64,000 bases of DNA from Candidatus Pelagibacterales bacterium (GCA_965235655.1 CBDDYU010000001.1:203791-267790), one strand, 5' to 3'. Positions 45,784 to 52,053 are shown, counted from the first letter of the stretch. The notes: generated by a model from the letters alone, not told the origin. Numbers and translations: made by a program.

Positions 45784-46379
45784 GTGGAAAACACATAGCA
45801 AAAGAACAACCTAAAAGCTTTATTTTTTCAGAAATTAATTTGAAAAAAAAAGATGAAATTTTAAAAAAATATCCTGAACAAAGAAAAAAAAGTGCAGTTA
45901 TGCCTTTATTGTATTTAGCTCAAAAACAAAATGATGGATGGATACCTTTGGCAGGAATTCAGTATATTGCTGACCTACTAGAAGTGCCGTACATAAAAGT
46001 TTTTGAAGTTGCAACGTTTTACACCATGTACAATCTTGCTCCGGTTGGAAAATACTTTGTTCAAGTATGCACTACAACTCCATGTATGATTAGAGGATCT
46101 GGAAAAATTGTAGATATGTGTAAGAAATATATTTCTGAAAAAGAAGGTCATTTGAGCGAGGATAAAAAAAGCTCTTGGATTGAGGTGGAGTGTTTGGGGG
46201 CTTGTGTAAATGCTCCCATGATACAAATTAATGATGATTATTATGAAGATTTAGATGAGCAGTCTGCTAAAAAAATTTTTCAAAGTTTTAATGATGATAG
46301 TTTACCCAGTATCGGATCTCAAAAAGGAAGAAAAGGTTCTGAACCCATAAGAGATCGTTTAACTTTAATAAAAAATTAG
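45780..46379 (+). CDS. nuoE: NADH-quinone oxidoreductase subunit E, copy 1
   Basis: 199-aa 24-kDa subunit with 2Fe-2S Cys motifs VCTTTPC and ECLGAC. Confidence 0.95.
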
Positions 46380-47642
46380 ATGCTAAAAGATAAAGATAGA
46401 ATTTTTACAAATTTATATGGCGACGATAGTTTTGATCTAAATTCATCTATAAAGCGTGGTGATTGGAAAGATATAAAAGAAATTACCAATAAAGGAAAAG
46501 ACTGGATTATAGATCAAATAAAAAAATCAGAATTAAGAGGAAGGGGTGGCGCTGGTTTCCCGACAGGTGTTAAATGGTCTTTTGCTCCTAAAGAAGTTAA
46601 AGAAGGAAGACCTCACTATCTTGTAATTAATGCAGATGAATCTGAACCTGGCACATGTAAAGATAGAGATATTATTCGCTATGAACCGCAAAAATTAATC
46701 GAAGGATGCTTGATTGCTTCATATGCAGTTAGTGCAAACACTTGTTATGTTTACATAAGGGGAGAATATGTAAATGAGGGTAAAATTTTACAGCAGGCGA
46801 TTGATCAAGCCTATGAGAAAGGTTATTTGGGAAAAAATGCTGCTGGCACTGGATGGGATTTGGATATGTATATCCATTTTGGAGCAGGAGCATATATTTG
46901 TGGAGAAGAGACTGCTTTACTTGAAAGCTTAGAAGGTAACAAGGGCCAACCTAGATTAAAACCTCCATTCCCAGCTTTGGTAGGGCTTTATGGCTGCCCA
47001 ACCATTGTCAATAATGTAGAAACTGTAGCAGTTGTTCCAACTATTTTAAGAAGAGGAGCTGATTGGTTTGCGTCTTTTGGAAGACCAAAAAATAGAGGTA
47101 CAAAAATTTTTTGTATTTCAGGAAATGTAAACAACCCTTGCAATGTTGAGGAGGAAATGAGCATACCTCTAAAAGATTTAATTGAAAAACATGCTGGCGG
47201 AGTAACAGGAGGTTGGGACAATCTTCAAGCTGTTATTCCAGGTGGATCTTCGATGCCTTTATTGCCAAAAAGAGTTTGTGAAACAATATTAATGGATTTT
47301 GATTCTTTAATAGAAGCGAAGAGTGGACTTGGGACCGCAGGCATTGTTGTCATTGATAAATCGCAAGATATTGTTAAATGCATTTCTAGAATTGCAAGAT
47401 TTTATAAACACGAAAGTTGTGGACAGTGCACTCCTTGTAGAGAAGGCTCTGGGTGGATGTGGAGAATGTTAGAGAGAATTGGAAGGGGAGAAGCGGACAT
47501 AGAAGAAATAGATATGTTAATGGATGTTACTAAGCAAATTGAAGGTCATACAATTTGTGCTTTTGGTGAGGGTTCTTCATGGCCAGTGCAAGGTTTATTA
47601 AGACATTTTAGAAAAGAAATGGAAGAGAAGTGTAATGCCTAA
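46380..47642 (+). CDS. nuoF: NADH-quinone oxidoreductase subunit F, copy 1
   Basis: 420 aa with the FMN site [10 protein letters not shown] and the N3 motif [12 protein letters not shown]. Confidence 0.95.
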
Positions 47643-49647
47643 AGTTAAAGTAGATGGAATAGAAATTGAAGTTGAGAATGGAACCACGGTTTTACAAGCT
47701 TGTGAAATAGCTGGAAAAGAAATTCCAAGATTTTGTTATCATGAAAAATTATCCATAGCAGGAAATTGTAGAATGTGTTTAGTAGAAATGGAAAAATCAC
47801 CAAAGCCAGTTGCATCATGTGCAATGCCAGTAGCAGAAGGGCAAGTTATTTATACGAATACACAAATGGTAAAAAAAGCAAGAGAAGGGGTAATGGAGTT
47901 CTTACTTATTAATCACCCCCTTGACTGTCCAATATGCGATCAAGGCGGAGAGTGTGATTTACAAGATCAATCAATGAAGTTTGGTGGTGGTAATTCTCGA
48001 TACGAATTAAATAAAAGATCAGTAAAAGAAAAATATATGGGTCCTTTAATTAAAACCCAAATGAACCGTTGTATTCACTGTACTCGATGTATTCGCTTTT
48101 CAGAGGAGTTAGCTGGCGTACCTGATTTAGGTGCAATAAATCGAGGTGAAAATATGGAGATTACTACTTTTCTTGAAAAAACGATTAATAGTGAGTTGTC
48201 AGCTAATGTAATAGATCTCTGCCCTGTAGGTGCATTAACATCAAGACCTTATGCATTTGAAGCAAGACCTTGGGAGCTAACAAAAACTGAAACCATTGAT
48301 GTGATGGATGCGGTTGGGTCCAATATTAGAGTTGATACTAAAGGCTGGGAGGTGAAAAGAATTTTACCTCGCACAAATGAAGAAATTAACGAAGAGTGGA
48401 TTTCAGATAAAACAAGATATGCTTGTGATGGTCTGTTAAATAATAGGATAGATAGTCCTTTTGTACGAAAAAATGGAAAATTAATCGAGTGTTCTTGGGA
48501 TGACGCATTTGTAGAAATTTCAAATCAAATTAACAAAACTGTTCGAGTAGGTGGAATAATTGGATCTACAGTTGATCTAGAGAGCATATATGCTTTTAAA
48601 CTTTTAATTAATAGTTTGGCAGGTTCAAATTCTATAGATTTTAGACAAAAAGATTTTTATTTTAATCCATCGCATCCTGGAAATTATTTATTCAATAGTT
48701 CAATTGAAGGAATTGATCATTCAGATTTGATTTTATTAATTGGCGCAAATCCTAGAACTGAAGCTACTATGGTTAATGCTAGAATTAGAAAAAATTATGC
48801 TCAAAAAAAACTAGATATTTTTTCTATAGGCTTACCTGAAGATCAAACTTATAAAATTAATTTCTTGGGAGATAATTTAAGTATCTTAAGGGATATTCTA
48901 AATGAAAAAAATTCTTTTTTTGAAAAGTTAGCAAAAGCAAGAAAACCAATGTTTATTATTGGTGAGTCTGTTTTAAATTCGCTTCAAGGTCAATTTGTAA
49001 TTGAAACTTCAAAATTAATTTTAAAAAAATATAATCAACTCAATGCTTTAAATATTCTTCATCAATCCGCCTCATCAGTTGGAGCTATAATGATAGGAGC
49101 ATATAATTTAATAGAAAATGTTGTTCAAAATGAAATTTTGTATTTGTTAGGAGCTGATGAAATTAACATCGATAAAAAAAATAAGTTTATTATTTATCAA
49201 GGATCACATGCTAGTAAAAACGCAAAAATTGCTGATGTAATTTTACCAGGAGCAGCTTTTACTGAAAAAGATGGACTGTATGTAAATCTCGAAGGAAGGG
49301 TTCAGTCAGCTTATAGGGCCTCATATCCTCCAGGAAATGCAAAAGAGGATTGGAAAATATTAAGAGCTTTATCAGAAACGTTAAACAAAACCCTTAAATT
49401 TAATACAATTGAGGAACTCAGAATTAAATTATTCGAGTCCTTTCCTTCATTATCAAAAATCGATGAACTGCCGATTATAGATTATTCCAATTTAGATATT
49501 AGTGAAAAAAAATTAGATTTAGACTCTGTAGTTCACTACCAATATCTTGATTATTATCAATCCAATGAAATTGCTAGATCATCAGCTACAATGATGGAAT
49601 GTAAAATTGCAAGAGAAAAATTAAAAAAAACTGGAACTGATGATTAG
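47635..49647 (+). CDS. nuoG: NADH-quinone oxidoreductase subunit G, copy 1
   Basis: 670 aa with the motifs [29 protein letters not shown] and RCIHCTRC. Confidence 0.95.
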
Positions 49648-50641
49648 TGAATATTTAAATATAATATTTTTTGACAGCTTAAAAATTTTAGCTTTACTAA
49701 TGCCAGTGTTAATTGCTGTTGCATTAATCGTTTGGGTTGATCGAAGAGTTTGGGGTTTGGTACAACTTAGAAAAGGTCCAAATGTAGTTGGTCCTTTTGG
49801 TTTATTACAAACAGCAGCTGATGCACTGAAATATATTTTTAAAGAAATTATTATTCCTGCTGGAGCAAATAAGGTTATTTTTGTTTTAGCTCCAGTCGTT
49901 ACAATGTCACTTGCTCTATTGGCTTGGGCGGTAATACCTTTTGGTGAAAATCTTTATGTAACTAATATTAATGTAGGTATTCTATATTTATTCGCTGTTT
50001 CATCTCTCGGTGTATATGGAATAATTATGGCTGGCTGGGCATCGAATTCTAAATATCCTTTTTTAGGTGCCTTAAGATCAGCTGCACAAATGGTTTCATA
50101 TGAAGTTTCTATAGGTTTTATTATTGTTACTGTGTTGTTGTGCGTAGGTTCATTAAACTTAGTGGATATTGTGGTTGCTCAAAAAAAAATATGGTTTGCT
50201 ATTCCTTTATTTCCAATGTTTGTAATTTTTTTTATTTCTGCACTTGCAGAAACAAACAGACCTCCATTTGATTTGCCAGAGGCGGAAGCGGAATTAGTTT
50301 CTGGATATCAAACTGAGTACTCAGGAATGATGTATGCATTATTTTGGCTAGGTGAATATGCAAATATTCTTCTTATGTGTGCCCTAGGTTCAATTTTGTT
50401 TTTAGGCGGGTGGTTACCACCACTTGATATCTCACCTTTTAATTTAATACCTTCACCGATATGGTTAATTTTAAAAATTTTATTACTTTTTTTTGTTTTT
50501 GCATTGGTTAAGGCAATAGTACCTCGATATAGATATGATCAATTAATGAGATTAGGATGGAAAGTATTTTTACCTATTTCGTTATTATGGGTAATATTAA
50601 CCTCATCTGTGTTATTTTACTTTAACCTTCTACCTAATTAA
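49640..50641 (+). CDS. nuoH: NADH-quinone oxidoreductase subunit H, copy 1
   Basis: 333-aa ND1-like polytopic protein with [14 protein letters not shown]. Confidence 0.95.
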
Positions 50642-51129: not shown

Positions 51130-51131
51130 CA

Positions 51132-51749
51132 ATGTTAGCGCACGCAATTATTTTTTACTTTTTTTCTTTTGTAGTAATAGCTTCTTCGGTGATGGTTATA
51201 TCATCAAAAAACACAGTGCATGCTGTTTTCTTTTTAATATTAGATTTTGTAAGTGTTGCTTGTCTTTTTATAATGCTTGGAGCAGAATTTTTAGGAATGA
51301 TAACCTTAATTGTTTATGTTGGAGCAGTTGCGGTGTTGTTTTTGTTCGTTGTTATGATGATTAATATTAATTTTTCAGAACTAAAAACTGGATTTTTAGA
51401 TTATTTGCCATTTGGAATGTTGATTGGAGTTGTCATTTTTATTGAATTAGTAATGATGATAAGTGCATGGAAATATAAAGCTGAATTTATTGTTACCAAA
51501 AAAATAGCCAAACCACTCGTGAGTAATACTGAAAGTCTTGGAATGATTATTTACACAGATTATATTTTATTTTTTCAAATTTCGGGTTTGATTTTATTAG
51601 TAGCAATGATTGGAGCAATCGTTTTAACATTTAGAAGGAAAGATTCTTTAAGAAGGCAGGATATAACTACTCAAGTTTCCAGAGAAAGAGACGAATCTGT
51701 TGAATTGCGAGATGTTCCAAATTTTAAAGGTGTTAAAATTAATGATTGA
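51132..51749 (+). CDS. nuoJ: NADH-quinone oxidoreductase subunit J, copy 1
   Basis: 205-aa ND6-like membrane protein in the conserved operon position. Confidence 0.9.
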
Positions 51750-52053
51750 AATTACTTTAGCTCACTATCTTTTTTTATCAGCTGTAGTTTTTACTATAGG
51801 AATTATAGGAATTTTTTTAAATCGAAAAAATGTAATTGTTATTTTAATGTCAGTTGAACTTATATTAATAGCAGTAAATATAAATTTAGTTTCGTTTTCA
51901 GTTTATTTAAATGATTTAGTAGGACAGGTATTTACCATGTTTGTTTTAACTGTTGCCGCTGCAGAAGCAGCAATAGGCCTAGCTATATTAGTTGTTTTTT
52001 TTAGAAACAAAGGAAGCATTCACGTTGAGGATATAAATTCTCTAAAGGGTTAA
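51742..52053 (+). CDS. nuoK: NADH-quinone oxidoreductase subunit K, copy 1
   Basis: ND4L-like protein. I prefer ATG 51742 ([11 protein letters not shown]), which overlaps the nuoJ stop, to the longer track ORF starting at 51700. Confidence 0.9.

What the first reader, a model, noticed from the sequence alone, without database searches (positions are those of the whole stretch)
46187..51969. The two nuo copies differ only by substitutions, mostly synonymous and confined to the distal 70 percent of the unit
By eye I count 23 differences. They are listed below in copy-1 coordinates, with copy 1 base/copy 2 base. 46187 G/A. 46202 T/C. 47447 C/T. 47495 G/T. 47685 C/T. 47862 A/G. 48117 C/T. 48183 G/A. 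48222 C/T. 48572 T/C (V->A). 48588 A/G (I->M). 48758 C/T (T->I). 49068 C/T. 49101 A/T. 49275 A/C. 49371 A/G. 49675 C/T. 49897 C/T. 49921 G/A. 50131 T/A. 50662 G/A (V->I). 50787 T/C. 51969 A/G. That is about 99.7 percent identity, with 19 synonymous and 4 nonsynonymous changes, 19 transitions and 4 transversions, and no indels. The first 2,392 bp of the unit ('nuoB, nuoC, nuoD and most of nuoE) have no differences at all. A redundant young duplicate drifting neutrally should show mostly nonsynonymous changes. The strong synonymous excess looks like allelic divergence between two functional orthologues, for example two co-occurring strains. One explanation is a hybrid assembly of two strain alleles. 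A second is a copy acquired by recombination from a sister lineage. A third is an older duplication in which both copies are under purifying selection and gene conversion has homogenised the proximal 2.4 kb.
Basis: partly seen in the sequence, partly recalled or inferred. Interest (0 to 1): 0.65.

Follow-up and report, generated by a model that had tools for sequence, protein, structure and literature searches.

The report
Two strain alleles stacked in tandem
An 8.3-kb stretch of respiratory complex I (nuo) genes appears twice in a row in this SAR11 sequence, and the 23 differences between the copies are ordinary variants that separate co-occurring strains, so the "duplication" is most likely an assembly error rather than a real gene gain.

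Summary
There is a perfect head-to-tail repeat of 8,291 bp (43795-52085 and 52086-60376). It has no indels and 23 substitutions at the listed coordinates: 19 synonymous and 4 nonsynonymous, 19 transitions and 4 transversions, none in the first 2,392 bp. dN/dS is 0.056.

The differences are standing polymorphism of a Pelagibacteraceae (SAR11) population, not divergence after a duplication. Twenty of the 23 copy-2 alleles occur in single-copy nuo operons from independent metagenomes. Both NuoG variants and the NuoI V7I variant occur elsewhere as exact proteins, always in single-copy operons. In the distal part the copies differ by 3.9 per kb, which equals population diversity. The nonsynonymous share is 17% between copies and 16% among population polymorphisms.

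The junction joins nuoL codon 10 to mid-nuoB bluntly, with no microhomology. It was found in no public collection searched. The only stretch typical of the common strain type is the distal part of copy 1, and it ends at the junction. The contig also has patches of insertion errors that coincide with strain-divergent sequence.

Best reading, about 0.65: a false duplication in a strain-mixed long-read assembly. A real two-allele duplication made by recombination between strains (about 0.28) needs the reads to exclude. An old duplication homogenised by gene conversion is not supported.

The parts
43795..52085 (+). Copy 1 of the 8,291-bp unit. It runs from the 3' part of nuoB through nuoC, D, E, F, G, H, I, J and K to the first 10 codons of nuoL.
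   Evidence: Gene identities come from the Pfam families of identical proteins.
52086..60376 (+). Copy 2 of the unit. It abuts copy 1 directly and continues into the intact nuoL.
52080..52091 (+). Novel junction 52085|52086, ...CCGTTA|AGATAT.... nuoL codon 10 is joined to mid-nuoB with 0 bp of microhomology.
   Evidence: The junction is absent from genome contigs and metagenome contigs. The 27 nt flanking it on each side are invariant in the 26-contig panel.
52056..52285 (+). Chimeric 75-aa ORF. The first 10 residues of NuoL ([10 protein letters not shown]) are fused in frame to the C-terminal part of NuoB ([14 protein letters not shown]...).
   Evidence: No gene with exactly this product is on record in the public assemblies.
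43795..46186 (+). Proximal 2,392 bp of copy 1, identical to 52086-54477 in copy 2. Its haplotype is nearest to contigs L013 and L015. Its minority alleles match the sister lineage.
   Evidence: None of the 190 panel pairs is identical here (minimum 2 differences, mean 14.6).
46187..52085 (+). Distal part of copy 1. It carries the population-majority ('A-type') allele at all 23 differing sites, has no rare or private allele, and ends at the junction.
54478..60376 (+). Distal part of copy 2. It carries the minority allele at all 23 sites, and 20 of the 23 equal the sister lineage L127. Its rare-allele density is 2.4 per kb, like the right flank and the intact upstream sequence.
43106..43992 (+). 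nuoA (43106-43474) and full-length nuoB (43444-43992). The left boundary of the unit lies inside nuoB.
60347..63763 (+). Intact nuoL (60347-62257) and nuoM (62261-63763), present once downstream of copy 2.
34718..41124 (.). Low-quality patch 2.7 kb upstream of the unit. It has 59 single-base insertions relative to at least 8 of 10 population contigs and no deletions. The suf/NAD-kinase/AFG1 genes are broken, and private, natural-looking substitutions are more frequent.

Best explanation
The window comes from an assembly of a microdiverse SAR11 (Pelagibacteraceae) population, not from one clonal genome. The two nuo 'copies' are two naturally occurring alleles of one single-copy nuoA-N operon, placed one after the other by the assembler.

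The background of the contig is a haplotype unlike the common type. This covers the left flank, the proximal 2.4 kb, the distal part of copy 2 and the right flank.

The distal 5.9 kb of copy 1 carries the alleles of the common, cosmopolitan sub-population. It stops at a blunt break at nuoL codon 10, after which the sequence restarts 8,291 bp upstream in mid-nuoB.

That is what results when two overlapping sequence ends are concatenated instead of merged. The ends could be the untrimmed overlap of a circular long-read contig, or a second-strain haplotig or read.

Shown here: the differences are standing allelic polymorphism, the contig is a mosaic with error patches, and the junction is blunt and unique. 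Inferred: the junction was made by software or by a chimeric read and does not exist in a cell.
For: 1. The differences are population alleles.
- Twenty of the 23 copy-2 alleles are present in a panel of 26 single-copy contigs, and copy 1 carries the majority allele at all 23 sites.
- The exact copy-1 NuoG protein is indexed in 98 blocks of the public collection and the exact copy-2 NuoG in 5 contigs. The copy-2 NuoI protein is indexed in 39 blocks. Every contig read back had a single-copy operon.
- Distal divergence is 23/5,899 = 0.0039, equal to panel nucleotide diversity of 0.0039.
- The nonsynonymous share is 17% between copies and 16% among panel polymorphisms (164 synonymous, 32 nonsynonymous).
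- The sister lineage L127 shares 20 of the 23 copy-2 alleles, as isolated sites. They are therefore old natural variants, not errors and not new mutations.

2. Haplotype layout.
- The distal part of copy 1 has no rare allele. Its only departures from the common type are sites it shares with copy 2.
- The proximal 2.4 kb and the flanks are not of the common type.
- The common-type block therefore spans only 46187-52085. It ends within 116 bp of the junction.

3. The junction has 0 bp of microhomology. It is absent from 241 million metagenome records and from the GTDB representative genomes. The fusion ORF is absent from the gene index. The flanking bases are invariant in the population, so the exact searches were adequate.

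4. The contig is visibly imperfect and mosaic.
- About 70 single-base insertions relative to the population contigs lie in two patches, 19.2-22.2 kb and 34.7-41.1 kb, plus one isolated site at 32996; there are no deletions across 20.8-41.6 kb.
- The inserted bases are G+C-rich and mostly unlike their neighbours.
- The patches coincide with raised strain-specific substitution density.

5. Context.
- Every same-species assembly identified was a MAG or a metagenome contig. That fits a mixed-population source.
- Haplotype-derived false duplications are a documented class of assembly error (PMC9516828).
- SAR11 is reported as especially hard to assemble from long-read metagenomes (PMC11406994).
Against: - There is no run of N at the junction, and no gap of any kind. 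In scaffolded eukaryote assemblies, false duplications usually flank gaps (PMC9516828).
- Both copies are free of indel errors, so they were well covered. An assembler normally merges an 8.3-kb overlap at 99.7% identity.
- The identity of the proximal 2.4 kb requires both ends to come from the same haplotype, with a strain switch inside copy 1.
- The short-read assemblies that make up most of the panel would collapse such a repeat. Their single-copy state therefore does not prove the duplication is absent from nature.
- No reads, coverage or assembly history are available. The artefact is inferred, not shown.
Confidence: 0.65

Rival explanations
1. The tandem duplication is real and carries two alleles, made by recombination between strains. 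A cell with the contig's background haplotype took up a DNA fragment from a cell of the common type. The left end of the fragment recombined homologously in nuoE, near 46187. Its right end, at nuoL codon 10, was joined illegitimately to mid-nuoB of a sister chromosome. This is a homology-facilitated illegitimate recombination. A two-step variant is a young duplication followed by one homologous import into one copy. In both versions the two copies lie on one molecule and all nuoC-K genes are intact in both.
For: - The anatomy fits a single event. The proximal parts are identical, one contiguous tract diverges at exactly the population level, and the foreign block ends at the junction.
- All ORFs in both copies are intact and the junction is in frame.
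- Neither copy has an indel error.
- SAR11 recombines very frequently (stated in PMC11406994, and also my own background knowledge). Imports would therefore outpace mutation in a young duplicate.
Against: - The junction and the fusion ORF were not found in any public collection searched.
- There is no microhomology at the junction. Illegitimate joins in bacteria usually show a few bases of it (my own background knowledge).
- Tandem duplications of 99.7% identity are unstable unless selected (background knowledge). SAR11 genomes are streamlined and have few paralogues (PMC11796062).
- The contig shows independent signs of being a strain mosaic of patchy quality.
- The two-step variant requires the import to end within 116 bp of the junction.
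Confidence: 0.28
2. This is an old duplication in which both copies are kept by purifying selection. The 23 changes arose after the duplication, and gene conversion homogenised the proximal 2.4 kb.
For: - dN/dS is 0.056.
- There is a sharp boundary between the identical part and the diverged part.
Against: - Twenty of the 23 'copy-specific' alleles occur in single-copy operons of other samples, and 20 of 23 occur in a sister lineage of 94% identity.
- The distal parts are as different as random population pairs (mean 18.9 differences, 37% of pairs with 23 or more).
- Neither copy carries a meaningful set of private mutations.
- No other assembly of the species shows the duplication.
Confidence: 0.04
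3. The 23 differences are sequencing or consensus errors in one copy of a duplicated stretch.
For: The contig does contain uncorrected errors elsewhere.
Against: - Those errors are single-base insertions, whereas the copies differ only by substitutions.
- Nineteen of the 23 differences are at third codon positions and 19 of 23 are transitions.
- Twenty of the 23 match alleles seen in independent assemblies.
Confidence: 0.01

Closest known systems
Heterotype false duplication in genome assemblies (Ko et al. 2022, PMC9516828)
   Same: Two alleles of one locus are both kept and placed adjacent as apparent paralogues. The copies differ by haplotype-specific variants at the population or heterozygosity level. 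The genes look intact, so the pattern reads as a gene gain.
   Different: That work describes the two haplotypes of a diploid animal. Here the haplotypes would be two strains of a bacterial population. There is no gap of N between the copies. The read-depth and read-pair criteria of that work could not be applied.
Untrimmed terminal overlap of a circular long-read contig (a common artefact of long-read assemblers; my own background knowledge)
   Same: It gives an exact tandem repeat of roughly read length, with a blunt junction at arbitrary positions inside genes and no microhomology. The two ends are built from different read subsets and so can differ slightly.
   Different: It is not known whether the source is a circularised genome. 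With a clonal sample the ends would differ by errors, not by natural alleles, so a mixed population is also required.
Bacterial tandem duplication and amplification by illegitimate or homology-facilitated illegitimate recombination (my own background knowledge)
   Same: A head-to-tail duplication inside an operon, with a novel join point that creates a fusion ORF. A homologous anchor on one side and a non-homologous join on the other would give the observed layout.
   Different: Such joins usually show microhomology. Fresh duplicates are identical, not diverged at the population level. No independent occurrence of the junction was found.
SAR11 population microdiversity with high homologous recombination (PMC11406994, PMC11796062)
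   Same: Co-occurring genomes differ by about 0.3-0.6%, mostly at synonymous sites, and the alleles are shuffled among contigs in a mosaic fashion. That is the pattern of the 23 sites.
   Different: Microdiversity explains the differences between the copies. It does not explain the junction.

Membership tests
Heterotype false duplication (assembly artefact) | The copies differ by variants that are alleles of one locus in the sampled population | tested here: met
   Twenty of 23 copy-2 alleles and 23 of 23 copy-1 alleles are present in single-copy contigs. The exact NuoG and NuoI variants occur in single-copy operons.
Heterotype false duplication (assembly artefact) | Each copy has about half the read depth of the flanking unique sequence | not testable with these tools
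   No reads or coverage data are available for the window.
Heterotype false duplication (assembly artefact) | A scaffold gap or depth gap lies between the duplicated pair | tested here: not met
   The window contains no N and the copies abut directly. A depth gap cannot be tested.
Heterotype false duplication (assembly artefact) | The duplication is absent from other assemblies of the same species | tested here: met
   Twenty contigs span the whole unit with a single copy. The junction and the fusion ORF are absent from all collections searched. Caveat: short-read assemblies collapse such repeats.
True tandem gene duplication (paralogues on one molecule) | The novel junction is supported by independent molecules or assemblies | tested here: not met
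   Searches found no second occurrence. Reads from the source sample could not be tested.
True tandem gene duplication (paralogues on one molecule) | The copies are each other's closest relatives compared with orthologues in other genomes | tested here: inconclusive
   Met in the proximal 2,392 bp: 0 differences, against a minimum of 2 among the 190 panel pairs. Not met in the distal 5,899 bp: copy 1 is 7 differences from L002 but 23 from copy 2.
True tandem gene duplication (paralogues on one molecule) | Microhomology or a repeat at the join point | tested here: not met
   There are 0 bp of shared sequence at either boundary.
Old paralogues homogenised by gene conversion | Copy-specific substitutions arose after the duplication and so are absent from single-copy genomes | tested here: not met
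NADH:quinone oxidoreductase (nuoA-N, 14-gene type with separate nuoC and nuoD) | Gene order A-B-C-D-E-F-G-H-I-J-K-L-M-N with the matching Pfam families | tested here: met
   The Pfam families of identical proteins in population contigs, together with the ORF map.

The most novel reading that the evidence does not exclude
A free-living, genome-streamlined SAR11 cell really carries a tandem duplication of ten complex I genes (nuoB'-nuoK). The two copies would be different population alleles, created in one step when DNA from another strain was integrated by one homologous crossover and one illegitimate crossover. That would be a natural 'heterozygous' operon in a bacterium.
Probability: 0.25. 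Interest if true: 0.55.

Novelty: not a real feature. Interest (0 to 1): 0.25.

Why it matters
If the sequence is taken at face value, it would be annotated as a doubling of ten respiratory complex I genes plus a NuoL-NuoB fusion protein in SAR11. SAR11 is noted for having almost no paralogues, and the strong purifying-selection signal could be read as evidence that both copies function.

The population comparison shows that this signal is inherited from ordinary allelic variation. It says nothing about selection on a duplicate.

The case is a worked example of how strain mixtures can produce convincing false gene gains in long-read microbial assemblies. Public single-copy contigs can be used to recognise them when reads are not at hand.

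If the junction is real, it would be a rare direct record of an inter-strain recombination event that created a two-allele duplication.

Tried and rejected
- **Junction searches.** Exact searches with a 54-mer in the GTDB representative genomes and a 27-mer in JGI metagenome contigs gave no hits. An exact look-up of the 75-aa fusion ORF found nothing on record.
- **Failed look-up.** The look-up of the window ORF 33803-34753 failed. That ORF turned out to be a SufD truncated by an insertion error.
- **Wider population panel.** It yielded only two useful loci, L126 and L127. No larger panel was obtained, and a planned survey of contig ends at the unit boundaries across many samples was not possible.
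- **Import from the sister lineage.** I considered that the rare alleles of copy 2 were imported tracts from the 94%-identity sister lineage, or came from cross-mapped reads of that lineage. This was rejected. The shared alleles are isolated sites, flanked within 1-27 bp by sister-specific sites that copy 2 does not carry.
- **First haplotype model.** My first model was a consensus-like block from 41.2 to 54.5 kb, based on rare-allele density. It was revised after nearest-neighbour and outgroup analysis. The flanks and the proximal part are not of the common type. Only the distal part of copy 1 is.
- **A possible contig break.** Contig L013 starts 31 bp after the left boundary of the unit. I considered this a hint of a real junction and judged it a chance event, because no other contig end lies near either boundary.
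- **Source of the window.** The window's source assembly and sequencing technology could not be identified.

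
Full report
**What is in the sequence**

The window holds one long repeat, a gap-free direct repeat with an offset of 8,291 bp. Copy 1 is 43795-52085 and copy 2 is 52086-60376, so the copies abut.

Identity is 99.72%.

The unit starts in the middle of nuoB. It contains nuoC, D, E, F, G, H, I, J and K and ends after codon 10 of nuoL. The gene identities rest on the Pfam families recorded for identical proteins in population contigs.

The layout is nuoA, nuoB, C-K, a 75-aa in-frame fusion of NuoL residues 1-10 with the C-terminal part of NuoB (52056-52285), then C-K again, then L, M and the start of N.

The join is blunt. nuoB reads ...GCCT|AGATATG and nuoL reads ...CCGTTA|GTAGCT, so no base is shared at either boundary.

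**Formal check of the substitution pattern**

- All 23 changes are in coding sequence. Nineteen are synonymous and four are not: NuoG V313A, I318M and T375I, and NuoI V7I. Nineteen are transitions.
- Nei-Gojobori counting gives 1,731 synonymous and 6,516 nonsynonymous sites, dS of 0.011, dN of 0.0006 and dN/dS of 0.056.
- The probability of 4 or fewer nonsynonymous changes out of 23 under neutrality is 4.8e-10.
- The first 2,392 bp have no change. The probability of that is 4e-4 under uniform placement and 1.5e-5 when weighted by population diversity.

**Organism and population panel**

NuoG places the window in Pelagibacteraceae (SAR11). The GTDB representative of the species is the MAG CP.15. 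The next species has 77% NuoG identity and Fonsibacter has 64%.

Exact-protein look-ups retrieved contigs of the same species from independent metagenomes and MAGs.

- Ten contigs carry the copy-1 NuoG, which is indexed in 98 blocks of the collection.
- Five contigs carry the copy-2 NuoG.
- Ten contigs carry the copy-2 NuoI, which is indexed in 39 blocks.

Together with CP.15 they form a panel of 26 contigs at 99.2-99.8% identity to the window. Every one has a single nuoA-N operon, and 20 of them span the whole unit and both boundaries.

**The differences are standing alleles**

- At all 23 sites copy 1 has the panel-majority allele.
- Twenty of the 23 copy-2 alleles, including 16 of the 19 synonymous ones, occur in at least one panel contig. 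They are scattered among contigs in mosaic fashion.
- Panel nucleotide diversity is 0.0060 in the proximal 2,392 bp and 0.0039 in the distal 5,899 bp.
- The copies differ by 0 in the proximal part, where about 14 differences are expected. No pair among 190 panel pairs has fewer than 2.
- The copies differ by 23/5,899 = 0.0039 in the distal part, exactly the population value. Thirty-seven percent of panel pairs differ by 23 or more there.
- Panel polymorphisms in the unit are 164 synonymous and 32 nonsynonymous, or 16% nonsynonymous. The figure between the copies is 17%.

The synonymous excess is therefore inherited from allelic variation that has already been filtered by selection in single-copy genomes. 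It says nothing about selection on a duplicate.

Sequencing error is excluded by the third-position and transition bias and by the match to independent assemblies.

**Outgroup**

A contig of a sister lineage (L127, 94% identity) carries the copy-2 allele at 20 of the 23 sites.

These are isolated sites. Within 1-27 bp on either side there are sister-specific differences that copy 2 does not share. They are therefore not imported tracts or cross-mapped reads.

Copy 2 keeps the older state, and copy 1 and the panel majority carry derived states. The same holds for 20 of 21 other minority alleles of the window in the flanks, the proximal part and the shared distal sites. It also holds for panel contigs L013 (19 of 19) and L011 (11 of 14).

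**Haplotype layout**

- The proximal part is nearest to L013 and L015, with 1-2 differences. The contigs nearest to the distal part of copy 1 (L002, L004, L009) differ from the proximal part at 10-14 sites, up to position 46043.
- The distal part of copy 1 differs from those same contigs at only 7-9 sites, and nearly all of them are sites where copy 2 has the same allele. For the nearest contig, L002, all 7 are. Copy 1 carries no rare or private allele of its own.
- The distal part of copy 2 has 2.4 rare alleles per kb. The right flank has 2.5 per kb and the intact upstream sequence has 2.1 per kb.
- The only common-type piece of the region is therefore 46187-52085. It begins at a homologous switch in nuoE and ends within 116 bp of the blunt junction.

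**Quality of the contig**

Relative to 10 population contigs, the window has 62 single-base insertions and no deletions between 20.8 and 41.6 kb. Fifty-nine of them lie in 34718-41124.

A second patch at 19184-22218 has about ten insertions.

The inserted bases are 59% G+C in a genome of about 28% G+C. Only 16 of 66 equal a neighbouring base. Genes in these patches are broken.

Substitutions inside the patches look natural, being mostly third-position and transition-biased, and they are denser than elsewhere. They include an AFG1-like allele that is 6% diverged.

Low consensus quality thus coincides with strain-divergent sequence. That is expected when a minority strain supplies the only reads. 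The contig is a population mosaic, not one clonal genome.

From 41.13 kb to 64 kb there are no indels against the panel.

**Independent support for the junction**

None was found.

- The 54-mer across the junction is absent from the GTDB representative genomes.
- The 27-mer is absent from 241 million JGI metagenome records.
- The fusion ORF is not in the gene index of ENA, JGI, NCBI and Logan assemblies.
- The 27 nt on each side of the junction are invariant in the panel, so polymorphism did not hide matches.
- Caveat: short-read assemblers collapse 8-kb repeats of 99.7% identity.

**Interpretation**

The old-duplication model fails. The copy-specific alleles exist in single-copy genomes and in a sister lineage, and the distal parts are no closer than random pairs.

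Two models remain.

(a) False duplication. Two overlapping ends built from different strains were concatenated. This could be the untrimmed overlap of a circular long-read contig, or a second-strain haplotig or read that ends at 52085 followed by backbone sequence starting at 43795. The model explains the following:
- the blunt and unique junction at arbitrary positions inside genes;
- a unit of about read length;
- a common-type block that ends at the junction;
- the identical proximal part;
- the mosaic and patchy quality of the contig.

It matches the documented class of heterotype false duplications (PMC9516828). It also fits the reported difficulty of assembling SAR11 from long-read metagenomes (PMC11406994).

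(b) A real two-allele duplication. It could be made in one step by homology-facilitated illegitimate recombination with DNA of another strain. Or a young duplication could have been followed by one import. This fits the anatomy and the intact ORFs. Against it:
- it needs a blunt illegitimate join;
- it needs an unstable repeat to persist in a streamlined genome with few paralogues (PMC11796062);
- it has no independent occurrence.

I put (a) at about 0.65 and (b) at about 0.28. Only the reads can decide.

**Verdict**

The duplication itself is probably not a biological feature. Interest is low unless read evidence shows that the junction is real.

Noticed in passing
window 34718-41124: There are 59 single-base insertions and no deletions relative to at least 8 of 10 contigs of the same species. 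The inserted bases are G+C-rich and mostly unlike their neighbours. SufD, SufS, NifU-like, NAD kinase, AFG1-like ATPase, SufE and neighbouring genes are broken into short ORFs. This looks like an uncorrected long-read consensus.
   Followed up: yes
window 19184-22218 and 32996: This is a second, smaller patch of about ten single-base insertions, shared against all 6-8 population contigs. It breaks the aroQ-like, thiG and RNase E/G genes. A separate single insertion at 32996 shortens SufB from 483 to 476 aa.
   Followed up: partly
window 38301-39130: Inside the error patch, the AFG1-like ATPase gene carries 48 substitutions in 830 bp, about 6%. They are mostly at third codon positions. The allele is equally distant from the main population and from the sister lineage L127, so it is a third, divergent natural allele.
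   Followed up: partly
window 44600-46100 versus L127: The sister lineage L127 is about 94% identical overall and 84-92% identical in nuoG-nuoI. It is 99.4-99.8% identical to this species across nuoD and the start of nuoE. This suggests recent exchange, or a sweep of this segment, between the lineages.
   Followed up: no
window 41244-63487; panel loci L011, L013: Almost every allele in which the window departs from the panel majority equals the sister-lineage allele: 20 of 23 differing sites plus 20 of 21 other sites. The same holds for contigs L013 (19 of 19) and L011 (11 of 14). The widespread majority type therefore carries the derived states, as if one recently expanded clade dominates public assemblies.
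   Followed up: partly
window 5415-9102; L116 4322-8004: The LptF/LptG and leucyl aminopeptidase (M17) genes are split in the same way in the window (169 + 338 aa) and in the contig of GCA_965235715.1. They are intact (488 aa) in L119 and L120. This is either a shared real frameshift or a recurrent consensus error.
   Followed up: no
window 25069-26161: The release-factor gene appears as a 248-aa ORF preceded by about 350 bp with no long ORF. One population contig has it called as 363 aa. This is probably the usual programmed frameshift of prfB.
   Followed up: no
L013 (ASPL16-1 scaffold_4429): This short-read contig starts 31 bp after the left boundary of the repeat unit. No other contig end lies near either boundary, so I judged it a coincidence.
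   Followed up: partly
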